From Verrucomicrobiota bacterium (GTDB lineage Bacteria > Verrucomicrobiota > Verrucomicrobiia > Limisphaerales > JBBRPK01): a stretch of DNA of 64,000 nucleotides. Location of the stretch: positions 3,027-67,026 of the forward strand of contig JBBRPK010000008.1 of assembly GCA_038228235.1 (NCBI GenBank), given 5' to 3'. Position numbers and translations under genes: made by a program. Shown in pieces: positions 24,262 through 64,000 of this stretch. Under the pieces are notes generated by a model, which had not been told where the DNA came from, did not search any database, and was given only the letters and a program-made list of their open reading frames with translations. How positions within the stretch are numbered: the first letter of the stretch is position 1; each line of letters starts with the position of its first letter.

Positions 24262-27200
24262 CTACGGACGGCGCACTCGATAAAACCGGCGCCCATAGCT
24301 GGCGGAGTTGGAGTCCTGAAAATCCTGAGATACACCGCTCAGAGTGTTGGTGGCAATCGGGGTCCAGCCGCTTGTAATATCGGCGGAGGCTTCGATGATA
24401 AAAATGTCTCCGACCTCGCCCTGCAGGGTAAACTGGAAGCGCCGGAGGTCTAATTTTACTGGTCCGCTCAAATGAGCTGGCAATGGGTTGATCCTGTCCA
24501 CAGTCGTGATTTTTAAGGCCCAGCCATCAGCGATTTGACCCAAGTCGCCCAAAGTGTCATCGACCACAAATAACGACCATTTACCATTTGGATCGCTCCC
24601 ATTGAAAACGGACAGGGTCGAACCGTACGGCCCGGTGGGAGCCGGGGGCGGGAATAAGTCGCCTGCTCCGTAGTTCGTGGGTTTGTAGGTTCCCGAGAAA
24701 ATTTGCGCAGAATCCGGCAGAGCGGTGGTCGCTGCATCATCGAAAGTGAGCGTCACATTGTTGATGCTGTTGCCCCCGCCGGTATCCGACATAATAAGAC
24801 TCGCCTGCCCGTTCGGTCCCACCAACAGGGCGTCGATGTCGTCAGGGTAAGCGTGGCTGAGGTTGCTGAGGGTCACCGTCACTTTACTGACCGCGCCTGC
24901 GAGGTTCGAGACGAGGATGGAGGATGGGTAAGGACTAGCGCGGCCATTGTCCGGGATGGAAACCAGTTGTCCGTTCGCGAGTGTGGCAACTGCTCCGAGG
25001 ATGAAAGTGAAGCTGGCAGAACCAAGACTATTGGCTCCATCCTGAAGATCTAAAGTCGCAGTGATAGTCCCACCATGGGGGCCTTGGGCTGTAAAGCTAA
25101 AGGACTGCATCACCGCCGGGCCATTGGCCATGAGGATGCCATAATTTTGGGGGCCGCTAACCTGGGTAACACCTGCGTTCGTCCGCAACGTGGCGAGCAG
25201 GGCGGTGGTGTTGGCGATGCCAATGTTCTTTAACCCAAAGCTTACTGTCACGGTCTCACCCGGATCAATTCCACCGGTGAAAGGGCCGCTCTCGGCGAGC
25301 AAGATCCGGCCGGCAGGGACGATAATCAGGTCAGGGTTGTTAACCACAGTGACGAGAGCAGCCGCGTTGTTCGTGGAAATGAGATCGGCGGGTTGTGTGG
25401 CGCTTACCGTCGCCCTATTGGTCACTGGGCCGACAACCGGGGGAATAACCACGATGGTGATGCTCGCCTGCGTAAACCTGGGAAGGGCGCCCAACGAGCA
25501 AGCAACAATGCCGTTGGCCTGACTGCAACTTCCCTGGCTCGAAGTGGCGGAAACGAAAGTCACTCCGCCCGGCAAGGTATCGCTGAGGTTAATTCCGAAG
25601 GCTGAGTTTGGCCCTTTATTGGTGACGATAATAGTATAAGCGAGGCTCTTGCCAATCGTGGCGGGATCTGGCGAAGCCGAAAGCCAGACGGCGAGATCCG
25701 ACGCGGGGCTCACGGTGGTGACAACAGTGGCGGTGCTATTGATCGGATTCCGATCCGTCTCGTTGGCCGAAACCGTGGCCACATTGGTGATTGGGCCAGA
25801 AAAGGATGGGGCTACGATGACGGTGACCGCGGCCCAACCCTGGTTGGTCAGCGTTCCCAATGCGAAAATAACCTGGCCACCGAGAACCGTGGAAGCACCC
25901 CCTTGACTGTTGGTGGCTGCCACTAAAGTTGTACTGGCCGGGAGGAAATTCGTCAGCGTCACGCCGGTGGCCGTTTTGGGTCCGAGATTCGTGACTGTGA
26001 TTGTGTAGGTCAGGTTGCTTCCCACCAGGACGGGATTAGGAGCTGCCCTGGCGGTCACGGCCAGGTCGGCAGTAGGGTTGACCGGATCCACGGTGCTGAT
26101 CGTAAGTCCCCAGCCGCCGACGATGCGACCGATATCCCCTGCAGTGTCATCTATCACGTACAAAGACCAAATTCCATTCGGGCCACTGGCGCTAAAGACA
26201 GATAAGGTGGTTCCGGAGGCATTGGGGGGCGACGGGGGCGGGAAGATGTCCGGGCTTCCGTCGAAGTTGCTCGGTTTGTAGATGCCAGAAACTATCGGAG
26301 TCGAGCTTGGCAGCGAGCGTGAAGCCGCGTCGTCAAAGGTTAGATTTACGTTATTCATGCCATACCCCGCGCCGGCGTCAGACATTAACATGACACTGCG
26401 TCCCGTCGGTCCCACCAGCAAAATATCCACATCACTGGGGGAAGTATGGTTCACATTACTCAGAGTGACGCTGATTTTGTCAATCAACCCGCTCAGGCCA
26501 GAGACAGAAATGGAAGAAGGATAAGGAGACGCCGGAGCATTATCGAAAATTGTGATCCCCCCTAAATTGAGGAAGGAGGCGACCCCTCCCAACCCATAAT
26601 TGAATCTCACTAGGCCCAGGTTTTTGGCGCCGTCCTGGAGTTGCAGGGTGATTGAAAGGACATCGCCGTTCGTGCCATTGGCGGCAAAAGTAAATTGGCG
26701 CCCTACGGACGCACCGCCCGCCGGCACAGCCCCATAGACCTGCGGGCCACTAGGGTTGACGACTCCGCCAGTGCTGAGCAGTGTTGCCACCAGATTCGAA
26801 GTAGTCAGGGAACCGATGTTCTGGAGGAACAGGTTTAGAGTCACGGTTTCACCGGGATCGATGCCGCCGTTGGGAGGATCAATGCTCTCGGAGAGCAGCG
26901 AGGCTTCCGCTGGAACAATGACCGCGATGGGGGGGAAAACTTCCGAGATGACGATGGAACTATTGTTAGCGGAGACAGCGTCGGTAGCGCTTGACGAAAC
27001 AGTAGCGACGTTGGTGATCAAGCCGGTAATGTGCGGTCTGACCACAATTCTGATACTGGCGCTTTCCCCATTGCCCAAGATTCCCAAGCTGCAATTGACA
27101 TAGCCTCCGGAGGAGCTGCAACTGCCCCTGCTGGTGGTGGAGGAAACGAAGCTGGAGCCGGCGGGAAGAATGTCAGTGAGCAAAACGTTGCGAGCGGCGT

Positions 27201-30200
27201 TGGGGCCTCGGTTGGTGACCGTTATGGAATATGTAAGATTGCTCTCCACCAGAATTATAGCTGGAGAAGCGCTGCTATTAACGGCCAAATCCGTGGAACA
27301 ATCGCCACCCCCGTCCGTGCAGATTGTTGGAGAGATATTTAGAGACCAGCACTCGATCGTGCCTTGGCCTACTGGAAAGCCATCCGAGACATGCAACCGC
27401 CAGGTGCCGTTCACTCGACTGCCGCTCTTGCCCGTAAACGCAGCCAGTGGCTGCTCCGGTCGAAAAGCGCCGACAAAGGGCGCACGCCCATTGTTTACGG
27501 GGAGGCTCGCCTTATCATCGAAGGTAGTCCGTTGAGAATCGGGGCTGCAGCTAACGCCAAAATCCGGTCCGAAACCCTCCAAACTGGCCAGGCTGACGCG
27601 GGTGCCGTCCGGACCGATCAGAACAAGTCGCAGAACGAACGTCAATGGGTGAGTGATATGGAGTGAGACAGTAACCTTCGAAATACCAGTGTCCAAACCG
27701 GAAACCGTGATCGGAGAATCTACGCCGGCTGGGTTGCCTTGGGGAATTAGAATTGGAGTCCCATTGTCAAACCGAACCGATGGGCCGACCAGCCCCGTCG
27801 GGAGACGAAACTTAGTAAGGCGAGTGTCCTGGTCGGACTGGATGCGAAGCACAAAGTTGATGGGCGTGCCACAGATAAAATCTGGCGTTGTATAAAACTT
27901 AAAAGGAGCTCTGTTTGTGGCCGTTCCACCCCTGGGAATGTTTGGATAGGCCGACGCGCCCTGAGAAATAAGGACTCCCGGCGTGGTTGTTGAGATGGTG
28001 GCGGAGATGCCGGTAGCGGCAATGCGCGTGTTGTTAACCAGAACCACATTTAATTCATTGCACTCATTCGGATCCACGACACCATTCCCGTTTCCAGTGA
28101 AGGGATCGAGAGCGGGGGTGCTTTTCACAGCGAGACCTGGCAAGTCAAACGCCTCCTCCACTCCGGCGGTTGTGTAACTGCCCGGTGATGTCGCGCTGCC
28201 TCCCATACCCCGTTTAGCAAAGGCGCTCCAGAGTTCATTGAAATTGGCCCCGCCCGTGTTGACCAAATCTGCCTGAATTATTGCGTCGCGCGCCTCGAGG
28301 AAAGTGGGGTTGGCCGGGCCGAGCTTCATCCCATCCGTGACCAATTGCAGCATCAGCTGATTACCGGTCGCATATCCAAACTTATTGATGAGGCCAGCGC
28401 GAGCTTCCCAGAGGGTGACGCACCAGATTTCTCCTTGGTTGTGGACCTCATTCGCGCCACCAGGATCGAATGGACTGAACAGCGGGCTTAAAGGCGCTCC
28501 GGTATGGGGATCGGCCTGGCTGGGGTCAATATCCTTAAAGGTCAGGGGATTGGTCGAAAGATTAGTTGTATAAGGGTAACGTCGAATCCCATAATAATAA
28601 TTCTGTTGAAAATTCGGGATAAAATCGAAAGTGATATAGCCGCCCATAGCATAGTTGGCTCCCACGTTATCACCGGGCGCGCTGAGCAAGCTTAGGGCGT
28701 AAAAGTCAGACCAACCTTCTCCCATACCCCCTGTTTGAAGCTCGCTGATTCCAACGCCTCCACCGACCAACCGGCCGCTTGTGCCGTGTGTTGCTTCGTG
28801 GAGCATTACTTCGGCATCGAAATCTCCATCTCTATTGGGAGTAGGCCCGTCAAAAACATACATTTGGATGCGACCGGGATTTCCGTCCCGAGCGGGAGTA
28901 AAGTTCGCGTTGTTAAGACCACTCCCATCCTGGGAGTCAGCCTGAATCGCATCATTGCCAAGCCCGCCCCTCCCAAAATTGTTGTTTTGGTAGTTGCCTG
29001 AGGCCTCAGTGAAACCAAGCTCGTAAAGTTTGTCATGATACCAATTTACCCAATAGAAAAGCTGCACCACGGCGGCCTCTCCGGAGTTAGTGGGCGATTG
29101 ATTCAGGTTAATCGGAAAGTCAAAGACTCGATTGGGGTTGCCCTGGGGTCTGGGCAGATCCGGCAAATCATCCGCATTTCGGTCCAAATGGGCATCCACG
29201 TTGTTGCCACGGGTTTCATTATCGGGATCATCGATCCAGCCATTGGGTGAGGCGTTGGTGTTGACAGCATTTGTCACCACGAGAACGCGAGGCACGAGGG
29301 CGGGCTGAGTCGGGCCAGGAGCGGGGAGTCCAGGTGAGAGGGGCGCAGGACTGTCGCTGGTCCAAACATTGTAGGTCGCGTTGGTGATATAGACGGTTAG
29401 TTGACGGCGCAGCAGAGCCTCGCCAGTCTCGGCATCGACGATGACGAGGAAGGTTTCGCCCCGTGCATGGCTTGTAAGCGTTACCTGCCAGCAGAGGCGC
29501 AGCGCAGCGCGGTTCAAAGGGAGCCAGGACAATTCAGCCCGAGTCTCGCCATTAAGCACGGAGAGAGCGTTAAAACGTTGCACCATGCCGGGTCCTTCCG
29601 GTGCAGCATTCACGGGCCGGAGTTGATCGAAGGTCAGCGCATGGTTGATGGCCTCAGCCGAGTAAACTACCGCTTGTTGAGCTGAAACGCCCGGCGCAAT
29701 TTGCAAGGCGGCGCGGTTTGGTGTTCCCGCATTCGCGGCCTGCACAACATCCGGTAAGAACTGCGTAGTGAGGTTTACCAATTGGCCTTTCCTGGTGATA
29801 TTGGCGATTAAAACGGCTCCATAAACAGAAATACCGTCCAATTGCTGTTCCCAAACGACCGTCCGCATCCCGTTATGTGGAGTGGCATAGTCTCTCGTGA
29901 GCGCCGCCGAGTCCAGAACCTCCGCACCGTGTCCGAACAGAGCAGAATGTTCGTTAAGAAACGCCCTAATAATCCTGTGGGGATCGTTGGCGGGAAAAGC
30001 CAGCAACGTCTCCGGTGAAATTCCATTTCCCTGGCCATTCGGTCCGCTCAAAAAATCATACGTCGAGCCGATAAATTTAGGCGCGCCCGTGAGCGGATCA
30101 ACCGCAACCTTAAATCCTGGGATCCGATCTTTGAGGCGGGCGGCCGCAACGGCGCTTTCGCCAGCCAACGCGCTTATGTTCGGCAACCCATCAAGACGTC

Positions 30201-30333
30201 TGTCGAAGTTGAGAAGAGGAGGCAATTCCGATGCCTTAAACGCCTGCAAAAGTTGGGGGAAACCTAGCCCGAGTACGACCGAGATTAGAATCAAAAACCG
30301 TTTCATATCAATGATCGAGCAGACAAATCTCAC
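24262..30333 (-). CDS. Giant exported M36 (fungalysin-like) metallopeptidase with P-domains, DUF11 repeats and an RFYR C-terminal domain (P5)
   Basis: Signal peptide (likely start ATG 30306, MKRFLILIS), FTP-type propeptide, HEATH...EGWSD, VHNQGEIW, three proprotein-convertase P-domain-like units, three DUF11 units (DLAV...LTYTITVTNxGP); ends RRFYRVRRP. Confidence 0.88.
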   Translation of the reverse strand: MRFVCSIIDMKRFLILISVVLGLGFPQLLQAFKASELPPLLNFDRRLDGLPNISALAGESAVAAARLKDRIPGFKVAVDPLTGAPKFIGSTYDFLSGPNGQGNGISPETLLAFPANDPHRIIRAFLNEHSALFGHGAEVLDSAALTRDYATPHNGMRTVVWEQQLDGISVYGAVLIANITRKGQLVNLTTQFLPDVVQAANAGTPNRAALQIAPGVSAQQAVVYSAEAINHALTFDQLRPVNAAPEGPGMVQRFNALSVLNGETRAELSWLPLNRAALRLCWQVTLTSHARGETFLVIVDAETGEALLRRQLTVYITNATYNVWTSDSPAPLSPGLPAPGPTQPALVPRVLVVTNAVNTNASPNGWIDDPDNETRGNNVDAHLDRNADDLPDLPRPQGNPNRVFDFPINLNQSPTNSGEAAVVQLFYWVNWYHDKLYELGFTEASGNYQNNNFGRGGLGNDAIQADSQDGSGLNNANFTPARDGNPGRIQMYVFDGPTPNRDGDFDAEVMLHEATHGTSGRLVGGGVGISELQTGGMGEGWSDFYALSLLSAPGDNVGANYAMGGYITFDFIPNFQQNYYYGIRRYPYTTNLSTNPLTFKDIDPSQADPHTGAPLSPLFSPFDPGGANEVHNQGEIWCVTLWEARAGLINKFGYATGNQLMLQLVTDGMKLGPANPTFLEARDAIIQADLVNTGGANFNELWSAFAKRGMGGSATSPGSYTTAGVEEAFDLPGLAVKSTPALDPFTGNGNGVVDPNECNELNVVLVNNTRIAATGISATISTTTPGVLISQGASAYPNIPRGGTATNRAPFKFYTTPDFICGTPINFVLRIQSDQDTRLTKFRLPTGLVGPSVRFDNGTPILIPQGNPAGVDSPITVSGLDTGISKVTVSLHITHPLTFVLRLVLIGPDGTRVSLASLEGFGPDFGVSCSPDSQRTTFDDKASLPVNNGRAPFVGAFRPEQPLAAFTGKSGSRVNGTWRLHVSDGFPVGQGTIECWSLNISPTICTDGGGDCSTDLAVNSSASPAIILVESNLTYSITVTNRGPNAARNVLLTDILPAGSSFVSSTTSRGSCSSSGGYVNCSLGILGNGESASIRIVVRPHITGLITNVATVSSSATDAVSANNSSIVISEVFPPIAVIVPAEASLLSESIDPPNGGIDPGETVTLNLFLQNIGSLTTSNLVATLLSTGGVVNPSGPQVYGAVPAGGASVGRQFTFAANGTNGDVLSITLQLQDGAKNLGLVRFNYGLGGVASFLNLGGITIFDNAPASPYPSSISVSGLSGLIDKISVTLSNVNHTSPSDVDILLVGPTGRSVMLMSDAGAGYGMNNVNLTFDDAASRSLPSSTPIVSGIYKPSNFDGSPDIFPPPSPPNASGTTLSVFSASGPNGIWSLYVIDDTAGDIGRIVGGWGLTISTVDPVNPTADLAVTARAAPNPVLVGSNLTYTITVTNLGPKTATGVTLTNFLPASTTLVAATNSQGGASTVLGGQVIFALGTLTNQGWAAVTVIVAPSFSGPITNVATVSANETDRNPINSTATVVTTVSPASDLAVWLSASPDPATIGKSLAYTIIVTNKGPNSAFGINLSDTLPGGVTFVSATSSQGSCSQANGIVACSLGALPRFTQASITIVVIPPVVGPVTNRATVSATQPADLISTNNAAALVTVVNNPDLIIVPAGRILLAESGPFTGGIDPGETVTVSFGLKNIGIANTTALLATLRTNAGVTQVSGPQNYGILMANGPAVMQSFSFTAQGPHGGTITATLDLQDGANSLGSASFTFILGAVATLANGQLVSIPDNGRASPYPSSILVSNLAGAVSKVTVTLSNLSHAYPDDIDALLVGPNGQASLIMSDTGGGNSINNVTLTFDDAATTALPDSAQIFSGTYKPTNYGAGDLFPPPAPTGPYGSTLSVFNGSDPNGKWSLFVVDDTLGDLGQIADGWALKITTVDRINPLPAHLSGPVKLDLRRFQFTLQGEVGDIFIIEASADITSGWTPIATNTLSGVSQDFQDSNSASYGRRFYRVRRP

Positions 30334-42998: not shown

Positions 42999-43060
42999 AT
43001 TAACTTTTACTTAGGTGCTGCTCTGTTGTTCATCATCAATCATCATCCTGCGCTGCCACA

Positions 43061-52513: not shown

Positions 52514-52579
52514 ATTTTTCTAATTTTTTCCGTGGCCTGCGATACCCTCAGGCCTTTCCGCAAAAACTTGCGGCCCTCA

Positions 52580-55500: not shown

Positions 55501-58500
55501 AGTCGCCGCCAAAAACGATGCTTAGATCGGCTTGGAGCGCCAACGCCAAAACCCGGTCGTTCGGTCCGGTCCCCGGATTGAATTGGTGATCCACGTTGCC
55601 GGGCGTTTCGTCGTCGATGATGGTGACGACGGCATTGGACGGAGTTCCAAGAGTGGTCGAGCCCAGGAAAGCAATTGGAGGCGGAGGCCCCTTGGGATTG
55701 TTCAAAACGACACTGAATGTTTTGTTTCCTCCTCCCTGCGTGTTGTCAATGATCGGAACGAGAATCGTCTGAGAGGTATCCCCAATCTGGAGTTGCAAGT
55801 TGCCGCTGCCATTGGTCGCCAGGAGAAATTGGTCGCCTCGGAAAAACAGCGTGCCCGAGGCGGCTAGGAAATCAGGGCCGTTGGGTCCGGTGCCGATAGC
55901 CGTGCCATCCACGGTGTGGTAATCGACCGAGACCGGGTTGATGGTCCCGCCCACTCGTTGCACCACCAGCGTGACGAAACCTGCGTACTCCTCAACACTG
56001 TAGGTGGGGGAACTGAATTGCAGGGCGCATTCGTCATCCACAATGGTTAGCGTGGCCGAATTGCTGCCACCGAGGGGACTGCCCGCGATGGCATTTGTTA
56101 AGTGAAGGAGCACGGTTTCATTCCCTTCGAGGAGGGCGTCGTCGATGATCGGAATGAGGACGGTTTTGTTGGCGTCGCCAGGGAGGAAGATCAAATTGTT
56201 AGTCACCCCCCGGTAATCAAGGGCGTTGGTAGCGGAGCCGTCGGTGGTCCAGAACGTAACGGTATTGGTGGCGTTCGTGAGGCCAATCCGGTTAATGTTG
56301 ACGACGGCGTTAGCGCCATTTTCATTGACGCGAAAATTGTTGGTGGCAAAGACAAAGGCGGTGTCATCGTCCAGGATGAAAAGAGTGGCTGTCTTCTGAC
56401 CGCCGAGCGGCACTCCGCCGGTGGGATTCGTCAGAACCAGGCTGATCGTCCGCGTCGGCTGCACGAGGCTGTTGTTAATAATCTGGATTGAAAACGTCTG
56501 GAGAATCTCGCCGGGATTGAAAGTAAGCCTTCCATTGGTGGCGCTGTAATCAACGCCCTTGGTGGCAGTTCCGTCGTTCACCAGGTAATCAACCGTCACA
56601 AGTCGATTAGTGTCCCCGGAACGCTGCACGCCTATCAACGCAGTGCCATCGCCCTCGTTAACCTGGTAATTGGCCATGCTAAATTGGATCGTTCCATCGT
56701 TGTCCACAATAATGATTGTGTCCCGGCCATTTCCGATGCTGAAACCAGGCCCATCGAGCAGAGTCACAGTGACCGTCTCTGCCAGTTCCTCGGTAGGGTC
56801 GTCGTTTGGCACCACGGTGATGGTGGCGGCGTTGGTGCCGGCGGGAATGGTCACGGAGTTGCCGAAGGGAACATAGTCGCTGCCGCTGGCGGCCGTTCCG
56901 CTGACGCCGAAATTTACCGTGAGCGGCTTGCTCGTGCTGCCGCTGCGAGTGACGGTGAAGACGCCCGGGCGCGTCCCTTCCTCATACGCCAACGGCGTGG
57001 TTGCCTGGATGTCCACGACTGCGGCACCGATATCGATGATGGTAAAGGTATGGCTGCGATAATCTCCTACATAACAATTTGTGGGCGCTTCGGTGATGTT
57101 AGTCGAAATTATGGTCATGTTGGTGGTATAATTGGTAATATACCCCACATGAGTAAAAAGAGTGACGGTAAAGCTCTTGTTGCCCGTGATGGCGTCATCG
57201 TTGAGGAGCGGGATAGTGATGAATTGGACGCTGTTCTCGATTTGGTGGAACTGAGGAGGGGGATTCGGCTGTGTATAGTGAAAAAAGCTTAACGTGCCGG
57301 TCCCGGTGAAGCTGTAATTTACCCCTTGAATGGCGCTGCCACCCGTGACGACCTTGTAATCGATCAGCGCCGGCGATTTGGTATTGGTCGGATTCGCGCT
57401 GATTCTCACTGCCAACTGAGCAGCCCCGATGTCCTCGCGCCCACTCGAATGACTGAGAAGGAACCCAACTGCCGGCAGCTCCAAGGGATCGTCGTTACCG
57501 ATAACCACGATGGCCGAGCTTGGGCTCCCGACGGAGTATCCGGACCCGGGCGCAAGCTGCACGATAACCGTGTCGTCGAGGCTGATATCGCCGTATTCAT
57601 TAAAAGGGTCGCCGATGGGTAAAACAGGAATAGTGGCGCTAACCGAGCCAACCGGGATGGTCACGCTTCTACCCACGGAGGAATAGTCGGCCCCCTCGAT
57701 CGCAGAGCCGCCGACCTCAAAATTCACTAATAGACCAGTGTTAGTGGCGCCAGTCCGACTGACGGTGAACAGGGCCGGAGTCCCGGCTCCTTCAACCACC
57801 GTGGCGCCGCCGCTGATAGTAACGACTGGCAGTTGATCGAGAATGGTCACGGTCGCCTTGTTGTTCAGGCTGCTGATGTTATAAGTAGTGCTGGGGGAAA
57901 GCAGGAGCGTGACAGTGGAGGGAGCGGGATTGGCGCGGTTAATGGGCCTGATGCTAATGGTGGTAGTAATCTGGCCCGCTGGAATGATCGTGGAGCCACT
58001 CAAAACTTGATAATCGACTCCACTGACGGCGGTTCCCGTGACCAGATAATTCACCAGCAAATCCTGGGTGAGATCCCCTTCCCGCTCGAGGGTCACCGTC
58101 CCATTGCCGCCGGTTTTGACAGCCGAGGAATCGGTGGAGTAGATACTGATCAGTGGCAGATTATCATTGACGAGGATAATTTCAGTCCTGGCTCCGCCGA
58201 TGCTATAGAGGGGACTGGCTCCAATCGTAACATCCACCGTTTGATCTCCCTCCACGAACAAATCAAGGATGCCCACGATGGGCAAGTTGACCGCTCGCTG
58301 CCCAGCCGGGATTATGATCGAGCCGGATAGTTTCTGATAATCCACGCCATTGCTGGCTGTGCCGCTCAAGCTGTAGTTGACCACCAGGTTGGACTCCACC
58401 GAGCCGCCAAACCGGACAAACGTGACCGTAGCGCTGTCGTAAACGGTTTCAATCGAGTCGGTGTCGAGTGTAAAAACTGCGACCGTCGGCTTGTCCGGCG

Positions 58501-61500
58501 GATCATTATCAAAAATGGTCACGGCCGCTTCGGCGGTTGCGAGGACATAAGTCGGATAAGTCTGGAACCAGGTCAATTGGTTGCTTGGACCGGAAGGCAG
58601 GAGTTCCCAGCCAGGGATGCTCACCTGGTTGGTGATAGAAACAAAGAAGGTGTTAGTCACGACCACGTTGGTATTCATGGCATTGGTGCTGACGATATTG
58701 GTCAACATGGTGGAAATCCGAAAATCATTGGTTTGCAGGAGCAAGGTCACTTCCACTGTTTTCGGCCCAGTCCCGCTGCTGTCCTCGATGGCTACCACAT
58801 TGAGATTGGTGGAGGAGCTGCCCGCCCTTATGGTAAAGCTCCCGAAGTCGTTGGTCGCCACCACGGTATTCGTGATCACGACCGAGCCATTGGTCGTGAA
58901 AGTGATGTTGGTGGTAATGGATCCCAGAGGTTGATAGTCAATTCCCTGGACGGCTGTGCCACTCAGCGCGAAACGGACTGGCAAGTCCTGGTTGGTATCG
59001 CCTGCGCGAGTGATCTTGAATTTGCCGATGGGTCCCCCCTCAAAAGCATTGGCCTGGCGCTGGATGATGAGGCTGGTCAACGGAGTGGCGATGTGATCCA
59101 GGTTGAGCGCATCTGCCGAATCCAGCACGGTCGGATCGGCAAAAGTGCTCGGGTCGGTGCGATAGCCATAAATAAAAGCCCGATTGGTATAAGTGCCGGG
59201 AGGAATGTTGCCAATGGTATAATAGCCCTGACTGTCGGTGTAACTGTAGCGATAAGTGCCATTGGTCGGCGGCGGGGGGGGCTTGTAAGGATCAGGCGGA
59301 ACGTAGGGCGGGAGCGAACCGCAATTGTGGACGCGGGCGCCCTGGATGGGATTGCCATTGAGATCCGTAACTTGTCCGCTCATGGTGAAGGTAGTTGGGT
59401 TTCCCACCACCACCACCACGTAGGCGCTGGCCACTCCGCCCTTCATGTCGGACGCTTCGCAGCGGACGACATACTGTCCGTCGTTGAAGAAAGTCTTGAT
59501 GTTGACACGAGAATTCGTGCCAAAAGTTTGATCGCTAAAATCCCAGTAATACGCCAGCGCATCACCATTTGGATCGTCTGCCGTGGCCGTGAACGTCACG
59601 GTCGTGCCGTTGGTGACGGTTAATTCACTTGCGCTCAACGTCAGGACCGGAGGAACGTTGGTGGGAAATGGTCCAATTTGAACGACCACATCAATCCATT
59701 TTTCACCGGGTGTAGCGCCCCCCTTGGCTACGGGCGTCAGATACAGGGCCTCCGGTGGATCGGCATAAGTGCGCCCAACCACCACCGCGGCGTCATTTTT
59801 CCCCGCCGTAGTGCCGGGCGTTGTGTCCAGCAGTTGAACGCTGCCGGCCGTGCCCGGCCAGTTCTCCCAGGTCAATTCGATGCCACTGGAGAGCCACGGA
59901 TTGTTCGGAAAACCCTGACGATAGCTGGCCCAATAGGTCCGCTCAAAATCTTTCCTGATTCGCAACGCGTAGAGCCGTCCGGCAGTGATGCTGGGCGTAT
60001 CGAAGGCATAGACGCGGTTGGTTTCACTCTGGGTAATGACTCGGGTAAATTGGTCCGGAAGCCAATTGAGCAGGTATTTGGCAGCAGCGCTAAAATGGCC
60101 GCCTCCGCTGCCCATCACGTCATATATGTCGCCATACTCTTCATCCGGCGGGTTCTTGCCAGCAGGCGCGTCGCGGGTCGGGGCATTGATGTCGTCGTGC
60201 CCAACCAAACTGTCCTGATCAAAAGGATAGGGAGGGAGGGGTGGAGCGGGCTGGACAGGCAAAGGCCGGTTGCCCCGGGTGTCCCAAAAATTCGCATGGG
60301 CCAATCCAAAGTTATGCCCCAACTCGTGCGAGATGGCGCCGCCGCCCCCAACGACTAATCCATCGGAGCGCCCACCAAACGTAACACCAGCAATCGAGGT
60401 AAATAACACGTAACGGAAATCATAAAACGAGATGTCATATCCTAGCGACGTCGCCAAGGTTTCCGCGTCCCCCAGCAGCGCAAAATCCAGGAATTCCCCA
60501 TAATAAATCTTTTTCTCCGGCAGCCTCAAAAAAGGAGTGACGGTGGTGTCGAAAGAAGCGGTGTCGTAGGAACCCTCCACGAAAAACCGGTTGTTCGATT
60601 CACCCAACGCATAGATGGCATCGATCGATGAAGGCGGTCTGGGATCGTCCGCAAACAACACCGGCATAAGCAAAAGTCGTTTTCGACCCTGGGAGCGGCT
60701 TTGACCTGAGATAGGTAACGTGCTTCCAGAGGCAGCGCTCACCGCCGCCTGGACGGAATTCGCGGCGGAGCTGGCTTGCAGAGGCGAAGCCGCCGACAGC
60801 GGCGCACTCGCGGCACTCCTGGTCCGGCTGGTGGGCACGTGCGGAGCCAGCCTCGACTCAGCTTCGCTGAGTTGCTTATTTAAAGCCGCGGCCTCTGAAG
60901 GTCGGCAAAGATGAATGATTTTCCCTCCCAGTTCGGCCAGGGTTGGTTTGCTATCCAACGCGGGTTTTTCCCCGCAAACTCCGCAAGCCGGCTGGAGCTT
61001 GCTATGTTGCGCCGCCAGGACATCGGATGCCTCCTCTGGTTCGAGAAGGCGGAGCGGGTCGGCTGAGACGGCCAGGTATTTGTCAACGGCTACGCCGTGG
61101 ATAGAGATGCCGGACTGAGATCTCTGTTGCAGCCGGCGGCCATACACAAAGGCCTCATATTTCCGATGGTTGATGGCCACTCGGCGAAAGTCAGGAGGCA
61201 CCTCACTCTCACGGCCGGGCAGCGGCGTGCAGGAGATGAGGGAGAAATCGCCGCGACCGCTGACGCGCTCTTCGAGTAATTCCTTGATCGTGGCGGGCAA
61301 TCGCTTGCGCACTCCGTAGGACACGGCTAATTCAAGGGCGCGTTGGGGATCGCTTTGGATGACCTGGGCCAGCTCTTTCCTCCGGGCTTGAGCAAGATGC
61401 TCGCCCTCGCGCAGCAGATCGGCTCTGGCTGTTTCCGAAGGCGCGCCAAGATAATCGGCTGCCCAGGAATCAAAGGCCAGGAATGAATTGGTTGGTGTCG

Positions 61501-61723
61501 GCGCGTTAGCGCTCGTGTGGGCTGGATCGCCAACCGGCGCAGCCAGCATTGTTTGCTGGGTCAACAAAGGAACATTCTGCCGGCCCACAGAAGCCAGCTC
61601 GACAGTCTGCGAAGCTGTTTTTTGGACGGGATGGCTGCGCCAGAAAAATACCAACCCCAACAGCAGCGCGAATGCAGCGAGGCTGATCAACGGCCGGCGT
61701 AATTTTCTCATTTGTAATTGCAA
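52580..61723 (-). CDS. Giant M11 (gametolysin-like) metzincin with PKD/Ig, Calx-beta and delta-60 repeats, 3047 aa (P2)
   Basis: N-terminal hydrophobic anchor or signal, long prodomain, HELGHNFGLAH plus Met-turn YDVMG, Ig/PKD unit, carboxypeptidase-regulatory-like unit, many Calx-beta-like units, two delta-60 clusters; ends KRFYRAREL. Confidence 0.88.
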   Translation of the reverse strand: MQLQMRKLRRPLISLAAFALLLGLVFFWRSHPVQKTASQTVELASVGRQNVPLLTQQTMLAAPVGDPAHTSANAPTPTNSFLAFDSWAADYLGAPSETARADLLREGEHLAQARRKELAQVIQSDPQRALELAVSYGVRKRLPATIKELLEERVSGRGDFSLISCTPLPGRESEVPPDFRRVAINHRKYEAFVYGRRLQQRSQSGISIHGVAVDKYLAVSADPLRLLEPEEASDVLAAQHSKLQPACGVCGEKPALDSKPTLAELGGKIIHLCRPSEAAALNKQLSEAESRLAPHVPTSRTRSAASAPLSAASPLQASSAANSVQAAVSAASGSTLPISGQSRSQGRKRLLLMPVLFADDPRPPSSIDAIYALGESNNRFFVEGSYDTASFDTTVTPFLRLPEKKIYYGEFLDFALLGDAETLATSLGYDISFYDFRYVLFTSIAGVTFGGRSDGLVVGGGGAISHELGHNFGLAHANFWDTRGNRPLPVQPAPPLPPYPFDQDSLVGHDDINAPTRDAPAGKNPPDEEYGDIYDVMGSGGGHFSAAAKYLLNWLPDQFTRVITQSETNRVYAFDTPSITAGRLYALRIRKDFERTYWASYRQGFPNNPWLSSGIELTWENWPGTAGSVQLLDTTPGTTAGKNDAAVVVGRTYADPPEALYLTPVAKGGATPGEKWIDVVVQIGPFPTNVPPVLTLSASELTVTNGTTVTFTATADDPNGDALAYYWDFSDQTFGTNSRVNIKTFFNDGQYVVRCEASDMKGGVASAYVVVVVGNPTTFTMSGQVTDLNGNPIQGARVHNCGSLPPYVPPDPYKPPPPPTNGTYRYSYTDSQGYYTIGNIPPGTYTNRAFIYGYRTDPSTFADPTVLDSADALNLDHIATPLTSLIIQRQANAFEGGPIGKFKITRAGDTNQDLPVRFALSGTAVQGIDYQPLGSITTNITFTTNGSVVITNTVVATNDFGSFTIRAGSSSTNLNVVAIEDSSGTGPKTVEVTLLLQTNDFRISTMLTNIVSTNAMNTNVVVTNTFFVSITNQVSIPGWELLPSGPSNQLTWFQTYPTYVLATAEAAVTIFDNDPPDKPTVAVFTLDTDSIETVYDSATVTFVRFGGSVESNLVVNYSLSGTASNGVDYQKLSGSIIIPAGQRAVNLPIVGILDLFVEGDQTVDVTIGASPLYSIGGARTEIILVNDNLPLISIYSTDSSAVKTGGNGTVTLEREGDLTQDLLVNYLVTGTAVSGVDYQVLSGSTIIPAGQITTTISIRPINRANPAPSTVTLLLSPSTTYNISSLNNKATVTILDQLPVVTISGGATVVEGAGTPALFTVSRTGATNTGLLVNFEVGGSAIEGADYSSVGRSVTIPVGSVSATIPVLPIGDPFNEYGDISLDDTVIVQLAPGSGYSVGSPSSAIVVIGNDDPLELPAVGFLLSHSSGREDIGAAQLAVRISANPTNTKSPALIDYKVVTGGSAIQGVNYSFTGTGTLSFFHYTQPNPPPQFHQIENSVQFITIPLLNDDAITGNKSFTVTLFTHVGYITNYTTNMTIISTNITEAPTNCYVGDYRSHTFTIIDIGAAVVDIQATTPLAYEEGTRPGVFTVTRSGSTSKPLTVNFGVSGTAASGSDYVPFGNSVTIPAGTNAATITVVPNDDPTEELAETVTVTLLDGPGFSIGNGRDTIIIVDNDGTIQFSMANYQVNEGDGTALIGVQRSGDTNRLVTVDYLVNDGTATKGVDYSATNGRLTFNPGEILQTFSIQIINNSLVQPTRTISLVLTNPTGGVPLGGQKTATLFILDDDTAFVFATNNFRVNENGANAVVNINRIGLTNATNTVTFWTTDGSATNALDYRGVTNNLIFLPGDANKTVLIPIIDDALLEGNETVLLHLTNAIAGSPLGGSNSATLTIVDDECALQFSSPTYSVEEYAGFVTLVVQRVGGTINPVSVDYHTVDGTAIGTGPNGPDFLAASGTLFFRGDQFLLATNGSGNLQLQIGDTSQTILVPIIDNTQGGGNKTFSVVLNNPKGPPPPIAFLGSTTLGTPSNAVVTIIDDETPGNVDHQFNPGTGPNDRVLALALQADLSIVFGGDFTTVDGISFNRIARLQPNGNLDPSFNPGAGIDGTVDAVAMQADTKILVGGSFSRVDSTNRANLARLNADGNLDLSFAPAAAPNGLVRALAVQANGQILVGGDFTQPRSHLARLNPDGSLDAAFSPAVAGSVYTLGVQADGRIVLGGAFTGIGASVSPSIGRLNTNGTLDATFNTGKGPNGIVASLALQSDGRVVIGGRFTQFNGTNANYLARLLSTGALDPDFSPGTGPDAPVNSVAVHSSGKILLGGDFTSFNGASRNRFARLTPSGFLDNIFNVGAGANDSVRAILVQPDSAVVIGGDFTQVEGLPRNHLARIHGDERSDLTSVSFSAASYSVSEGAGAATITVVRSGNTNRAFSISFSTTNGTTTPFADYIPTNGVLNFGSGDLTRTFNVKIIDDTLIEDNETIFLFLTNAPGGVDLSGISAAVLTIVDNEKSIRFSSTNYFVNEGGSNAIITLTRQGPLIGAVSVTFSTTDGTAMAGADYLGITNVVNFADGQSNQTVLVPIIDDSITEGPETVNLMLSNPSGDVQLGLASSVLVIIDNEPGPGGVEPGFATGAGANNFVRSLALQRDGRILAGGGFTSFDNVPRNYVARLNANGALDLTFDPGTGADASVASVASLPDGRAVLGGAFTTINGTGYNRLGRLLANGAPDPSFNQVAGFNASVNVVALQADGRVLAGGGFSVPAHDITELLPAGSIDFSFNPGNGFDGPVHCALIQTNGQILLGGAFGSVNGFPCTRVARLNANGSVDSDFVTTALTNGSVYAMALQSDGKIVIGGDFYTTSNTNRVGLARLNADGSLDATFDPGSGANAAVFAVAVLPSGKIIVGGSFTTFNNVNRNRLVRLRQNGSVDTAFDPGTGPNNTVFAVIVLPDSNLLIGGAFNLVNGLTRNGVARIKSDDLDPAFLSIALSPGNPVQMTLRSQNGSVYVLEASQDLINWVPIRTNTASGPTLVLSDPAPNPGAKRFYRAREL

Positions 61724-61740
61724 AGCTTGTTTCTCAGTGA

Positions 61741-63999
61741 TTACGGGTTCACACGTACCCGGTAAAATCTCTTTCCCGCCGCCGGTGAACTATCGAGCGC
61801 CTTCAAGGTACCGTTGGTGGGGCCGTTGATAATGTTGGTTAAAACCTGCCAATTATTGGCGGCTGGGCCGGAGACGTATTCGACCCGACTAGTGGATTGC
61901 GCCTTGGCGCGCCAGGAAAGCTGAACCTGATAGCCTTTTGTCATCGTGATTTGCAATCCCGTGCTATTTGGCTCCGGAAGGGGAGTGGGATCGTCGGCAT
62001 TGACGATGCCATCGCCGTCCGAATCCAAATCTCTGCTCGTTACCAAAGCGGTATTGAAAGTAAAAGTTCGGCCATCCGGATAAGTAATGTTGGTGGAACT
62101 GAGGGGGCCGGTGAAACCGCTGATCCAATGCAATCGTCCGCCCGTGCTGTTATCAAGTTTGAGCGGGTTGAGATTGGAATTGGCGAAATAAATGGTGATA
62201 TCCGGGCTGATGTCCAAAGCCAAATTGAAATTCGTAGCATAGTTGAGCAATTCGAGATAATCCACATAAAGGGCCCTGCCCGTTTGGCCCGAGGGCGCGC
62301 CAAAGTGGAACAGGGAATTAGTGGCTCCATTTAAAGTCAATTTTCCAAGCGCCAGATTATTGTTGTATCCAGCGACTGTCGGCCCCCGGTCCTCCGCAGC
62401 CCACGTATGGAAGGAGTCCTGCCCGAAACCAGAGGCCACGGAGGTGAGATAAGTGGCTAACAAATCGCTGGTGCGTGGCAGCGTCAGCATTTGAAACCCG
62501 GCGGTCCCCAGCCAGTGATTGATGCCGCTCTGCCCCGAATCGACCAAACTGTTTGTGACTGAGAAAATCAAGCTCCCGTGCTGAATTATCCCTGCCTGGA
62601 GGAAGGAATTGGAAACCACTAGATCCCTGGCGAAAATCTGCACATCCGAGTTGCCCTCCAGCACCGCGCCATAGGAATTAGTGATGCTGATAAAGTTGGT
62701 CACAAAGCCAAAAGGTGGGAACGGATTGAAGGTGACGATCGGCGTGGGGTCGTTAAAAATTACCAGGGGCGGCCCCATCATGCTGGCGGTGAGCGCGTCC
62801 AATCGCAAGAGTCCGGCATTGGCGATGATGGACCCGCTATTCTCAAAATTAAGAGTGCGAATGAAGTGAGCGGCGGCCGTATTGGTGCCCCGGTTGATAT
62901 AATTGTCATAAGGGAAAGGACGGTCGGTGCCCGCTTTGGCGAGTTGGAGAATATTGATGATTCCTTCGTTGGTGAAATCAACCACTCCCAGAAAATTGGT
63001 CGCGCCCCAACTTGCGCCCAAGGGCAAGGAAAGCCCTCCCTTGATGTCCAGCCCATGCGCTTCAGCCAAAAACGACTTTCCGATGTTAAGCTTGTCACAA
63101 ATGATTAGGTTGGCCGCATGAGCGGCAAACTCGTTCACTACCACTGGTTGCACGTTTGTGAACCTGGCATCGACGATCAGCACATGGAAAAAAAACTCAT
63201 TCGTCGGCGAGGAATTAGTCTCAAAATTCTTCCAAGTGGCTGACCAGGCGGCAATGTCGCCGGAAAGCCGGCGCACCGTTGCGGGGGCAAGATTGGAAAT
63301 AATCATTCGCGGCGCCAGCGTGGTGGCGTCAAAATTTACCCAGGGGGCATCGACTCTGGCCAATTGATTGCTGGTCAGATTCTTGGAGGCTTTGATGACG
63401 AGGGCCGATTCGGCCCGGATGCGGGTCTGCTCAAGATTGACTTCTTCTCCGATGACCTGGATGCGGCCGGGAAAGTTGGTTAGCGTGCCGCCATTGGTCA
63501 GGGCTGTGGAGGCCACAGTACCGATGCTGGCATCATAGGCGGCGTAGCGATTTGTCACGACATTAAACTGAAAAGAAGGTCTCCACAGCAGGGCTGGAGT
63601 GAAGATGGCGTTGGTCTGAAAGCCGAAAAAACCAAAGTTCGCCGGCGCGAGGTGACTGAGTTGGTAAGTGTTGGGACGCCGGCTGTTGCCGACGCCGTTC
63701 ACGGCAAGAAAGGCATTGGTAACCACGCCCAGCGCATCGGATAGATAAATGCTGTCAGTGGTAAAAACCTGATCAACGATGTCGAAATCAGTGCTATGGA
63801 AAGCGACCACGGGGATGCTGGCGCCGTTGTTGGCTTCACCAACAAAGTCGGGCAGAAATTGCACTTCGGTAGTCAAATTCGGATCGGGGTAATTGGTCGG
63901 GTAAAATACCACTTGGACCACGAAGTTGGTAGCCGAGCCGGGGAGTTGGTTGGTCAGGACTGCCGCCGTATAGTTGCTGGGATTGAAACCGAACGGCAA
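61741..63999 (-). CDS. C-terminal 752+ aa of a large exported protein of unknown function (P1); 5' end lies beyond the window
   Basis: Open frame to the window end; Asn/Thr-rich beta sequence with NxGxI repeats, DSDGDGIVNADD Ca-binding-like loop; ends KRFYRVRVNP. Confidence 0.85.
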   Translation of the reverse strand: MPFGFNPSNYTAAVLTNQLPGSATNFVVQVVFYPTNYPDPNLTTEVQFLPDFVGEANNGASIPVVAFHSTDFDIVDQVFTTDSIYLSDALGVVTNAFLAVNGVGNSRRPNTYQLSHLAPANFGFFGFQTNAIFTPALLWRPSFQFNVVTNRYAAYDASIGTVASTALTNGGTLTNFPGRIQVIGEEVNLEQTRIRAESALVIKASKNLTSNQLARVDAPWVNFDATTLAPRMIISNLAPATVRRLSGDIAAWSATWKNFETNSSPTNEFFFHVLIVDARFTNVQPVVVNEFAAHAANLIICDKLNIGKSFLAEAHGLDIKGGLSLPLGASWGATNFLGVVDFTNEGIINILQLAKAGTDRPFPYDNYINRGTNTAAAHFIRTLNFENSGSIIANAGLLRLDALTASMMGPPLVIFNDPTPIVTFNPFPPFGFVTNFISITNSYGAVLEGNSDVQIFARDLVVSNSFLQAGIIQHGSLIFSVTNSLVDSGQSGINHWLGTAGFQMLTLPRTSDLLATYLTSVASGFGQDSFHTWAAEDRGPTVAGYNNNLALGKLTLNGATNSLFHFGAPSGQTGRALYVDYLELLNYATNFNLALDISPDITIYFANSNLNPLKLDNSTGGRLHWISGFTGPLSSTNITYPDGRTFTFNTALVTSRDLDSDGDGIVNADDPTPLPEPNSTGLQITMTKGYQVQLSWRAKAQSTSRVEYVSGPAANNWQVLTNIINGPTNGTLKALDSSPAAGKRFYRVRVNP

Positions 64000-64000
64000 G

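What the first reader, a model, noticed from the sequence alone, without database searches (positions are those of the whole stretch)
24262..63999. At least 39.7-kb operon-like array of five giant exported proteins combining adhesin modules with zinc proteases
Five co-oriented genes (752+, 3047, ~3150, 4222 and 2023 aa) are packed with gaps of 17, 66, 62 and -4 bp by ORF-track coordinates. They share one parts kit: Calx-beta, delta-60 propellers, DUF11, P-domains and one C-terminal domain. Two carry zinc-protease domains (M11, M36); two carry non-catalytic-looking heads. Seen: spacing, motifs, shared tail. Established: Calx-beta, delta-60 and DUF11 are extracellular Ca-binding or adhesion modules. 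Inference: a co-expressed cell-surface apparatus for binding and digesting protein substrates, biofilm matrix or prey/host surfaces. I know of no named system with this composition. This is the best candidate for an undescribed system in the window.
Basis: partly seen in the sequence, partly recalled or inferred. Interest (0 to 1): 0.85.

Follow-up and report, generated by a model that had tools for sequence, protein, structure and literature searches.

The report
Giant adhesin-protease gene cassette, Verrucomicrobia
The five huge genes are real and belong to a seven-gene set of exported calcium-binding stalk proteins tipped with proteases, a set that nearly all related soil Verrucomicrobia keep directly behind a pilus-type outer-membrane channel operon, but any working link between them rests on gene order alone.

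Summary
The five minus-strand ORFs, their spacing, the Calx-beta/delta-60/DUF11/P-domain kit, the M36 protease and the shared tail are confirmed. There are four corrections. (1) The contig continues: the "752+" gene is a complete 1011-aa protein, and two more co-oriented genes (gB 510 aa, gA 765 aa) lie upstream, giving seven genes over 44.4 kb. (2) "M11" is not supported. That head has an invariant HExxHxxGxxH motif but no family assignment. (3) The ~70-aa RFYR tail is not private to the array: 140 ORFs of this genome (8% of its DNA) end in it, and it occurs across the phylum. (4) The array is not an orphan. In 43 of 44 informative relatives (Limisphaerales/Pedosphaerales MAGs), gA-gB-g5 sit directly behind a PilM-Amuc_1100-like-x-PilQ secretin operon, the homologue of Akkermansia Amuc_1098-1102. 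They are followed by tail-bearing proteins with the same four head types. Here the secretin operon lies on another contig.

Best reading: an order-specific, conserved cassette of Sec-exported, tail-sorted stalk proteins that present proteases and binding heads. Co-transcription, localisation and any dependence on the secretin are untested. I found no description of it in the literature searched.

The parts
61741..64000 (-). g5. This is the 3' 2.26 kb of a complete 1011-aa gene, which runs to window-equivalent 64776 (= C8 67802). It has a signal peptide (MKQLLISAWLSLSSVLAASAAD), a ~900-aa body with no catalogue hit, a DxDxDG Ca-binding-type motif (61972-62034) and the tail (61744-61959). It is the conserved core member.
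   Evidence: It is single-copy in this genome and colinear with gB in 47 loci.
52580..61723 (-). g4, 3047 aa. Domains in order: N-terminal hydrophobic segment (61634-61711); ~310-aa pro-region; metzincin-motif head (59654-60700, with HELGHNFGLAH at 60296-60328 and DVMGSGG at 60101-60121); PKD (59408-59644); CarboxypepD_reg-like domain (59153-59386); Calx-beta x9 (55607-59077); delta-60 propeller (54497-55558); Calx x2; second propeller (52751-53818); tail (52583-52801).
43061..52513 (-). g3, 3150 aa. Domains in order: signal peptide (likely start at M27, 52352-52435); Ala/Pro/Ser-rich linker; uncatalogued ~450-aa head (50678-52036); three blocks of Calx-beta alternating with three delta-60 propellers (43247-50677); tail (43064-43291).
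   Evidence: Head paralogues lie on C59, C52 and C334.
30330..42998 (-). g2, 4222 aa. Domains in order: signal peptide; uncatalogued ~138-aa head module (42414-42827); 19 Calx-beta units in four blocks alternating with three delta-60 propellers (31761-42404); P-domain (30927-31310); DUF11 (30570-30896); tail (30333-30551).
   Evidence: Residues 202-2386 are colinear with g3 616-2741 at 44% identity.
24262..30333 (-). g1, 2023 aa. Domains in order: signal peptide (MKRFLILISVVLGLGFPQLLQA, 30238-30306); FTP propeptide motif (29767-29904); M36 fungalysin domain (28192-29280, with HEATH at 28786-28800 and EGWSD at 28705-28719); three P-domains and three DUF11 domains (24508-27681); tail (24265-24486).
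23650..24249 (-). coaE (dephospho-CoA kinase). It starts 12 nt after the g1 stop codon. It marks the downstream end of the array and may be read through from it.

Best explanation
The array is the distal part of a conserved cassette specific to one verrucomicrobial order (Limisphaerales in NCBI labels).

The cassette has a fixed three-gene core. gA is a repeat-rich exported protein with an Fn3-like region and the tail. gB is an exported 510-aa protein without the tail. g5 is a ~1000-aa exported protein with the tail. After the core come a variable number of tail-bearing proteins. Their N-terminal 'heads' come from four recurrent families: an M36 fungalysin, an unassigned metzincin-motif protease, a ~140-aa accessory module and a ~450-aa uncatalogued domain.

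In this lineage the spacer between head and tail has been inflated by Calx-beta sandwiches and delta-60 propellers into 2000-4200-aa proteins.

Proposed mechanism (inferred). Each protein is exported by Sec through its N-terminal signal peptide. The small C-terminal beta-sandwich tail, a proteome-wide tag in this phylum, directs it to or holds it at the cell surface. The Ca-binding repeat region forms a long stalk. The protease or binding head then sits at the far N-terminal end, where it binds and cuts extracellular protein substrates. The proteases are made as zymogens (FTP propeptide; ~310-aa pro-region).

In almost all relatives the cassette is read straight after a PilM-Amuc_1100-like-x-PilQ secretin operon. 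Here and in its closest relative it stands apart from that operon.
For: Shown:
- ORFs, spacing and domains.
- Intact catalytic motifs: HEATH and EGWSD in M36; HELGHNFGLAH and MGSGG invariant in the 7-sequence alignment of the metzincin head.
- N-terminal hydrophobic signal segments on all seven proteins, read from the translations.
- gB homologues occur in 38 of 41 genomes of the same order and in 0 of 200 genomes from other orders of the phylum.
- The gA-gB-g5 core is present in 47 of 80 related loci. Of 44 with enough upstream DNA, 43 have the secretin directly upstream. The first gene after g5 carries the g2-type head (17 loci), M36 plus g2-type head (6), the metzincin head (4), g3 plus g2 heads (3) or M36 alone (2).
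- gA, gB, g5 and the metzincin head are single-copy in this genome.
- The tail sits within 8 residues of the C-terminus in 140 of 149 carrier ORFs. Those 140 ORFs make up 8% of the genome.
- A random sample of 20 small tail-bearing proteins included phosphatases, phosphodiesterases, a putative glycosidase, a cyclophilin, cupredoxins and Ig/cadherin-type adhesins.
- The tail is predicted with confidence as a 6-strand beta-sandwich (pLDDT 89).
- The tail is found in 83 of 201 genomes of other orders in the phylum.
- NCBIfam already holds three M36 families defined by three different C-terminal sorting systems. Pairing M36 with a sorting tag is therefore a recurrent design.

Inferred: surface retention through the tail, the stalk geometry and the distal position of the heads.
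Against: - There is no expression or localisation data: no RNA run was found, and promoter and terminator scans do not exceed shuffled sequence.
- No machinery that reads the tail is known.
- The tail profile also matches internal tandem repeats in many proteins elsewhere (87,580 cluster representatives, some with up to 40 stretches). It may therefore be a generic Fn3-like module and not a sorting signal.
- In this genome and in its closest relative with a long contig, the cassette is not next to the secretin, so cis-linkage is dispensable.
- The functions of gA, gB and g5 are unknown. They have no Pfam, NCBIfam or PDB sequence hit, and the gB structure model was poor (pLDDT 55).
- Other runs of tail-bearing giants exist in this genome, for example four genes on C12. 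Clustering of such genes is therefore not unique to this locus.
Confidence: 0.55

Rival explanations
1. Secretin-dependent apparatus. gA, gB and g5 are order-specific accessory parts or dedicated cargo of the PilM-Amuc_1100-like-PilQ machine. That machine would act like a type II secretion system and carry the folded tail-bearing giants across the outer membrane.
For: The secretin lies directly upstream of gA in 43 of 44 informative relatives, co-oriented, with ORF-to-ORF distances from about -100 to about 1600 nt. The core genes are single-copy. [quoted passage not shown]
Against: The evidence is gene order only. The operon PilM-A1100-x-secretin is phylum-wide (176 of 201 genomes). In 20 loci from other orders it is followed neither by gA/gB/g5 nor by tail genes, apart from one incidental tail. 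The tail occurs on 140 proteins scattered over the genome. The cassette is unlinked from the secretin in this genome, in its closest relative and in L079. The genome also has at least 5 secretin-like ORFs and 13 T2SSE-family ATPases.
Confidence: 0.2
2. Released exoenzymes. The proteins are secreted into the medium or biofilm matrix and not anchored. On this view the tail and the Calx/delta-60 repeats are matrix-, glycan- or Ca-binding modules, and the cluster is a nutrient-scavenging protease regulon.
For: The tail has a generic Fn3/Ig-like fold with no specific structural match. The same profile hits internal tandem repeats in many proteins. Tail carriers include typical scavenging enzymes such as phosphatases and phosphodiesterases.
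Against: The tail is strictly at the extreme C-terminus in 140 of 149 carrier ORFs here. That is what a sorting or anchoring element would show, and it is not expected of a binding module. Stalks of 2000-4000 aa are typical of cell-attached adhesins.
Confidence: 0.2
3. No functional unit. The array is simply tandemly duplicated paralogues of giant surface proteins, kept together by their recent origin.
For: g2 and g3 are colinear at 44% identity over 2272 aa. g3 and g4 share 34% over 1651 aa. g1 and g2 share a 47%-identical C-terminal block. Other runs of tail-bearing giants exist on C12, C30 and C11.
Against: The heads, not the repeats, are what is conserved at this position across different families of the order, and the gA-gB-g5 core is unrelated in sequence to the giants.
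Confidence: 0.05

Closest known systems
Akkermansia muciniphila Amuc_1098-Amuc_1102 'pili-like' cluster (PilQ secretin, Amuc_1099, Amuc_1100, PilM/FtsA-like Amuc_1101; PMC4960237, PMC5332112)
   Same: This genome has a colinear operon on contig C76: a PilM_2-domain protein (7.7e-36), an Amuc_1100-family homologue (6e-19), a ~270-aa protein, and a secretin with an N-terminal TPR region (9e-33). In relatives the cassette starts directly after this secretin.
   Different: The Akkermansia cluster as described ends at the secretin. gB was absent from all 200 genomes sampled from other orders of the phylum. In 20 loci from other orders, no gA, gB or g5 followed the operon. In this genome the two parts are on different contigs.
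T9SS cargo proteins with a C-terminal sorting domain, including the T9SS-dependent M36 metallopeptidase (NF038113) and its myxosortase- and rhombosortase-dependent counterparts (NF038112, NF038111)
   Same: An M36 protease plus Ig-like spacer domains plus a small folded C-terminal beta-sandwich that many unrelated exoproteins of the same genome also carry. The head-to-anchor polarity is the same.
   Different: The tail matches no T9SS CTD, PEP-CTERM or other sorting model in Pfam or NCBIfam at E<=1. The M36 scores lie far below the equivalog cut-offs (357-359 bits against 885-1500). No sorting machinery has been identified. T9SS is, from established knowledge, a Bacteroidota/FCB system.
Giant Ca2+-dependent repeat adhesins (BapP of Pseudoalteromonas tunicata, LapA, SiiE; PMC12153261)
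   Same: Very long exported proteins built from Calx-beta or cadherin-like Ca-binding sandwiches, in BapP combined with a beta-propeller. They are predicted to act as extended surface stalks.
   Different: No RTX/T1SS C-terminal signal or N-terminal retention module was reported by Pfam. The polarity is the reverse of LapA: here the functional head is N-terminal and the putative anchor C-terminal. The heads include zinc proteases. Propellers alternate with Calx blocks up to three times.
Fungalysin (MEROPS/Pfam M36) zinc metalloproteases
   Same: A full-length catalytic domain (PF02128, positions 19-368 of 368) with the FTP propeptide motif, HExxH and EGWSD.
   Different: It is followed by 1300 aa of P-domains, DUF11 domains and the tail. 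It is encoded as the last gene of the cassette.

Membership tests
Peptidase M36 (fungalysin), PF02128 | Pfam score above the gathering cut-off over the whole catalytic domain | tested here: met
   g1 residues 352-714 score 369.3 bits against a cut-off of 23.3 and cover profile positions 19-368 of 368.
Peptidase M36 (fungalysin), PF02128 | Zinc-binding HExxH and the downstream E of the EGxSD motif | tested here: met
   HEATH at residue 512 and EGWSD at residue 539.
Sorting-system-dependent M36 equivalogs (NF038112 myxosortase, NF038113 T9SS, NF038111 rhombosortase) | Whole-protein score above the curated cut-off, which requires the matching C-terminal sorting signal | tested here: not met
   Scores were 359, 357 and 295 bits against cut-offs of 1500, 885 and 1700. 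Only the catalytic region aligns.
Peptidase M11 (gametolysin), PF05548 | Pfam score above the gathering cut-off | tested here: not met
   12.8 bits against a cut-off of 21, E=0.058, over 28 residues only. M66 (17.5 bits) and Reprolysin_3 score equally weakly.
Metzincin clan | HExxHxxGxxH zinc motif and a conserved Met-turn | tested here: inconclusive
   The motif HELGHNFGLAH and the M in DVMGSGG are invariant in the 7-sequence alignment of the g4 head and six relatives. The fold was not modelled, and the PDB profile search gives only motif-level hits at E>0.2.
Calx-beta (PF03160) and delta-60 repeat (TIGR02608 / PF17164) | Scores above the curated cut-offs, with multiple repeats | tested here: met
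   Calx-beta scores 1117, 464 and 407 bits in g2, g3 and g4. DUF5122 scores 652, 685 and 437 bits. TIGR02608 scores 259 bits against a cut-off of 76.5 in g4.
T9SS C-terminal sorting domain (TIGR04183 / PF18962) | Match of the tail to the CTD models | tested here: not met
   Tails scanned against Pfam (three tails) and NCBIfam (five tails) gave no CTD match at E<=1; the only Pfam hit was an unrelated one at E=0.1. A search for SprA_N in this genome found nothing, but the control genomes did not ring either, so that result is uninformative.
Type IV pilus / T2SS-type secretin operon (PilM_2 PF11104, Secretin PF00263) | PilM and secretin domains above cut-off in one operon | tested here: met
   On contig C76, PilM_2 scores 124 bits against a cut-off of 27 and Secretin scores 113.7 bits against 27.5. 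These genes are not in the window.
Amuc_1100 family (NF038287, equivalog) | Score above the curated cut-off of 180 bits | tested here: not met
   68.6 bits, E=6e-19, over model positions 1-214 of 326. This makes it a homologue, not an equivalog.
RTX / T1SS giant adhesins | RTX nonapeptide repeats and a C-terminal T1SS signal; an N-terminal retention module | tested here: not met
   No HemolysinCabind or related family appears in the Pfam lists for any of the five proteins. All have N-terminal Sec-type signal segments.

The most novel reading that the evidence does not exclude
In Limisphaerales, the PilM-Amuc_1100-like-PilQ machine together with gA, gB and g5 forms a previously undescribed secretin-based secretion or display apparatus. 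Its clients would be the FYR-tailed protease and adhesin proteins, with the folded C-terminal beta-sandwich as the recognition element. This would be a verrucomicrobial functional counterpart of T9SS CTD sorting, built on a type IV filament chassis.
Probability: 0.15. Interest if true: 0.85.

Novelty: new variant of a known kind. Interest (0 to 1): 0.55.

Why it matters
Verrucomicrobiota are abundant in soil and freshwater, and how they export and display their very large exoproteomes is unknown. Tail-bearing proteins make up 8% of this genome.

A conserved, order-wide cassette that pairs a pilus-type secretin operon with three unknown exported proteins and with tagged proteases and adhesins gives a concrete, genetically tractable place to start. 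Cultured relatives such as Pedosphaera exist.

The cassette also extends the Amuc_1098-1102 cluster, which is studied in Akkermansia for its effects on the host, to free-living relatives, where it has acquired extra genes.

If the tail proves to be a sorting signal, it would define a new protein-sorting system. If not, the locus still documents extreme modular inflation of protease-tipped stalk proteins.

Tried and rejected
- Pfam, NCBIfam and PDB sequence searches of the tail, gA, gB, g5 and the g2, g3 and g4 heads gave no family assignment.
- The AlphaFold model of gB was poor (pLDDT 55). Its top Foldseek hits were all MMP catalytic domains, but over only ~40 columns at E>=1, so this is recorded as a hint only.
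- The Foldseek search with the tail model returned only generic Fn3/Ig folds at E>=0.08.
- No RNA evidence could be found. Promoter and terminator scans did not exceed shuffles.
- The presence of the secretin across the phylum does not discriminate, because 176 of 201 genomes have it.
- The SprA_N search in this genome was uninformative because the controls were silent.
- A toxin or polymorphic-toxin reading was rejected: no toxin or immunity domains were found, and the gaps leave no room for small partner genes.
- A misassembly explanation for the missing secretin was rejected on the secretin side. Independent Logan contigs run from inside the secretin gene into the convergent downstream gene.
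- On the gA side the contig passes through high-copy REP-like repeats about 400 nt upstream of gA, where the Logan contigs break. That join is therefore unverified.
- Three literature searches found no description of this cassette.

Full report
**Observation.**
All five ORFs exist on the minus strand at the stated coordinates, with ORF-track gaps of 17, 66, 62 and -4 nt. Base composition is even across the window. The translations and family scans confirm most of the domain kit:
- Calx-beta in g2, g3 and g4.
- DUF5122/delta-60 propeller repeats in the same three proteins.
- DUF11 in g1 and g2.
- Three P-domains in g1.
- A full M36 fungalysin domain in g1 (369 bits), with the FTP propeptide motif, HEATH and EGWSD.
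- A PKD domain and a CarboxypepD_reg-like domain in g4.

A self-built repeat map shows that g2, g3 and g4 consist of blocks of Calx-beta sandwiches alternating with two or three propellers of 7-8 blades. The P-domain of g2 is seen only through its homology to g1.

The 'M11' call is not supported. The g4 head scores below threshold for M11, M66 and reprolysin alike. A profile of seven orthologous heads finds only motif-level metzincin hits in the PDB. The motif HELGHNFGLAH and a candidate Met-turn (DVMGSGG) are, however, invariant in that seven-sequence alignment. It is probably an active zinc protease of an unassigned metzincin-like family.

**Extension beyond the window.**
The window is C8:3027-67026 of a 6.36-Mb, 355-contig assembly. 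The contig continues for 11 kb.
- The '752+' gene is complete at 1011 aa, has a signal peptide and has no Pfam or NCBIfam hit.
- Two more co-oriented genes lie upstream of it. gB (510 aa) has a signal peptide, no tail and no catalogue hit. gA (765 aa) has a signal peptide, a repeat-rich N-terminal half, weak Fn3 and TSP3 hits and a tail ending SYYRVARVQ.

The array is therefore seven genes over 44.4 kb. Downstream, coaE starts 12 nt after the g1 stop codon and is followed by glgB and an M13 peptidase gene, which are housekeeping neighbours.

**The tail.**
An iterated profile search of all stop-to-stop ORFs of this genome finds about 149 carriers. In 140 of them the domain lies within 8 residues of the C-terminus. 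Of those 140, 51 are at least 1000 aa long and 28 at least 2000 aa. Together they make up 8% of the genome.
- A random sample of 20 small carriers holds purple acid phosphatases, phosphodiesterases, a GxGYxYP putative glycosidase, a cyclophilin, cupredoxins, a sulfatase-like protein and Ig/cadherin adhesins.
- The tail has no specific match in Pfam or NCBIfam; at E<=1 only one unrelated Pfam hit (E=0.1) appeared.
- It is predicted confidently (pLDDT 89) as a six-strand beta-sandwich with only generic Fn3/Ig structural neighbours.
- It matches 87,580 cluster representatives world-wide, in some of them as internal tandem repeats.

The shared tail is therefore a proteome-wide, phylum-wide C-terminal module and not a private mark of this array. 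Earlier notes of this scan on other genomes reached the same conclusion. I re-tested it here independently.

**Synteny.**
gB has homologues in 38 of 41 genomes of the same order, each from a different family. It has none in 200 genomes from other orders of the phylum.

Nine relatives were examined at about +-20 kb, and 80 loci were retrieved with a gB profile. All 80 appear to be Verrucomicrobiota MAGs, many labelled Limisphaerales or Pedosphaera and a few carrying other taxon labels that look like mislabels. They show one conserved order: PilM-like protein, Amuc_1100-like protein, a ~270-aa protein, a ~950-aa secretin with an N-terminal TPR region, then gA, gB and g5, then one to three tail-bearing proteins.
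- Of 47 loci with the gA-gB-g5 core, 44 have enough upstream DNA to judge, and 43 of those have the secretin directly upstream.
- In 34 loci the gene after g5 could be annotated. It carries the g2-type head (17), M36 plus g2-type head (6), the metzincin head (4), g3 plus g2 heads (3), M36 alone (2) or none of these heads (2). A metzincin-head gene often comes next.
- The other ~22 loci hold a stand-alone, tail-bearing paralogue of gB.

All four head types in this window are thus recurrent occupants of this position. In many relatives they sit on 1200-1550-aa proteins. The 2000-4200-aa sizes here and in the closest relatives come from Calx-beta/delta-60 inflation.

The giants are mosaic paralogues. 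g2 and g3 share 44% identity colinearly over 2272 aa. g3 and g4 share 34% over 1651 aa. g1 and g2 share a 47%-identical C-terminal block. In contrast, gA, gB, g5 and the metzincin head are single-copy in this genome.

**The secretin operon.**
In this genome the secretin operon lies on contig C76. It comprises a PilM_2-domain protein (7.7e-36), an Amuc_1100-family homologue (6e-19, below the equivalog cut-off), a 272-aa protein and a secretin (9e-33). It is the homologue of the Akkermansia muciniphila Amuc_1098-1102 'pili-like' cluster, whose PilQ is the dominant outer-membrane protein there (PMC4960237, PMC5332112).

Independent Logan contigs from two metagenomes run from inside the secretin gene into a convergent downstream gene. 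The absence of gA behind the secretin is therefore real for this organism.

On the gA side the contig crosses high-copy REP-like palindromes about 400 nt upstream of gA, where the independent contigs break. That join is unverified.

The closest relative with a long contig (gB 65% identical) has gA-gB-g5 followed by a 3668-aa metzincin-head giant, preceded by ABC-2 permease genes and not by a secretin. L079 also lacks a secretin directly upstream of gA.

Outside the order, the PilM-A1100-x-secretin operon is almost universal (176 of 201 genomes). It is followed neither by gA/gB/g5 nor by tail genes, apart from one incidental tail.

**Interpretation.**
What is shown:
- The cassette is real, conserved and specific to one order.
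- All seven members have Sec-type N-termini.
- Two heads are probably active zinc proteases, both with pro-regions.
- The stalks are made of Ca-binding repeats.
- The C-terminal domain is a general tag of exoproteins in this phylum.

What is inferred: the tail sorts or retains the proteins at the cell surface, the repeats form a rigid stalk, and the heads work at the far end on extracellular protein substrates. This polarity (head N-terminal, tag C-terminal) matches T9SS cargo and is the reverse of LapA-type RTX adhesins.

NCBIfam already recognises three M36 families tied to three different C-terminal sorting systems. The g1 protein looks like a fourth version of that design with an unmodelled tag.

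The more ambitious reading is that gA/gB/g5 and the secretin form a secretion or display machine for tailed cargo. It rests only on gene order. It is weakened by the natural uncoupling seen here, by the scattered distribution of tail genes and by the lack of such linkage in other orders. I give it 0.15-0.2.

**Not resolved.**
- Co-transcription: no RNA runs were found, and promoter and terminator scans are no better than shuffles.
- Localisation.
- The machinery that reads the tail.

**Literature.**
Three literature searches found no description of the cassette. BapP-type Calx-beta adhesins (PMC12153261) are the nearest described stalk proteins.

**Verdict.**
It is a new variant built from known kinds of parts. 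Its function as a single 'apparatus' remains a hypothesis.

Noticed in passing
C8 71900-72400 (window-equivalent 68900-69400; L151 2950-3400): The ~1.4-kb non-coding stretch upstream of gA holds REP-like palindromic repeats, for example ACCCAGCGTTGAAATYGAAACG twice and GTCCCGAAGGGAC...GTCCCTTCGGGAC. Logan contigs of both metagenomes break there, and word depth rises about 10-fold. It may hold the cassette's promoter, and it is the point where linkage to the rest of the contig is unverified.
   Followed up: partly
window 23650-24249 (-): coaE starts 12 nt after the stop codon of the 2023-aa M36 gene. An essential housekeeping gene may therefore be transcribed as the tail end of a 44-kb array, or from a promoter inside g1.
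   Followed up: no
gB, C8 67836-69365 (outside the window; L001): The residues just after the signal peptide (FSLLGPF) are invariant or nearly invariant across 25 homologues. Residues ~66-100 (EAYRWNVPVITYGFD plus a helix) resemble the first strand and helix of matrixin catalytic domains. Nearly all of the top 50 Foldseek hits were MMPs, but at E>=1. There is no HExxH motif, so this may be a degenerate metzincin-like domain.
   Followed up: partly
L075, L076, L082-L086, L088, L091-L093, L095, L099-L101, L103, L105, L109: A paralogous branch of the gB family carries the FYR tail and stands alone, away from any secretin/gA/g5 context.
   Followed up: no
gA residues ~379-502 (C8, outside the window): This genome's gA has a ~125-aa predicted helical insertion (LLFDDLKDVPSLLTKL...) that is missing from the two relatives checked for it, L153 and L079.
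   Followed up: no
G000 C12 9237-38928 (+); also C30 14831-29668 and C11 2163-16915: There are other runs of co-oriented tail-bearing giant genes. On C12 the stop-to-stop ORFs are ~3340, 1144, ~4890 and ~520 aa. Arrays of such genes therefore recur in this genome.
   Followed up: no
G000 C76 17558-20401 (-) and C230 3738-5369 (+): The PilQ-type secretin carries a long Gly/Ser/Gln low-complexity insert (GGSSSGGGGG...QQQQQQQQQQ) at which independent contigs break. A second secretin-like gene on C230 is interrupted by an in-frame TAG. The genome also has 13 T2SSE-family ATPase matches.
   Followed up: partly
L132, L134, L137-L140, L143, L144 (other orders of the phylum): Outside the order, the secretin is often followed by a co-oriented pair of ORFs of ~220-310 aa and ~680-730 aa, unrelated to gA. 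Other lineages may have their own post-secretin genes.
   Followed up: no
window 18768-20852 (-): An M13 (neprilysin-type) peptidase gene lies 3.4 kb downstream of the array, after coaE and glgB. It is a third zinc-protease family in the neighbourhood and is probably unrelated to the array.
   Followed up: no
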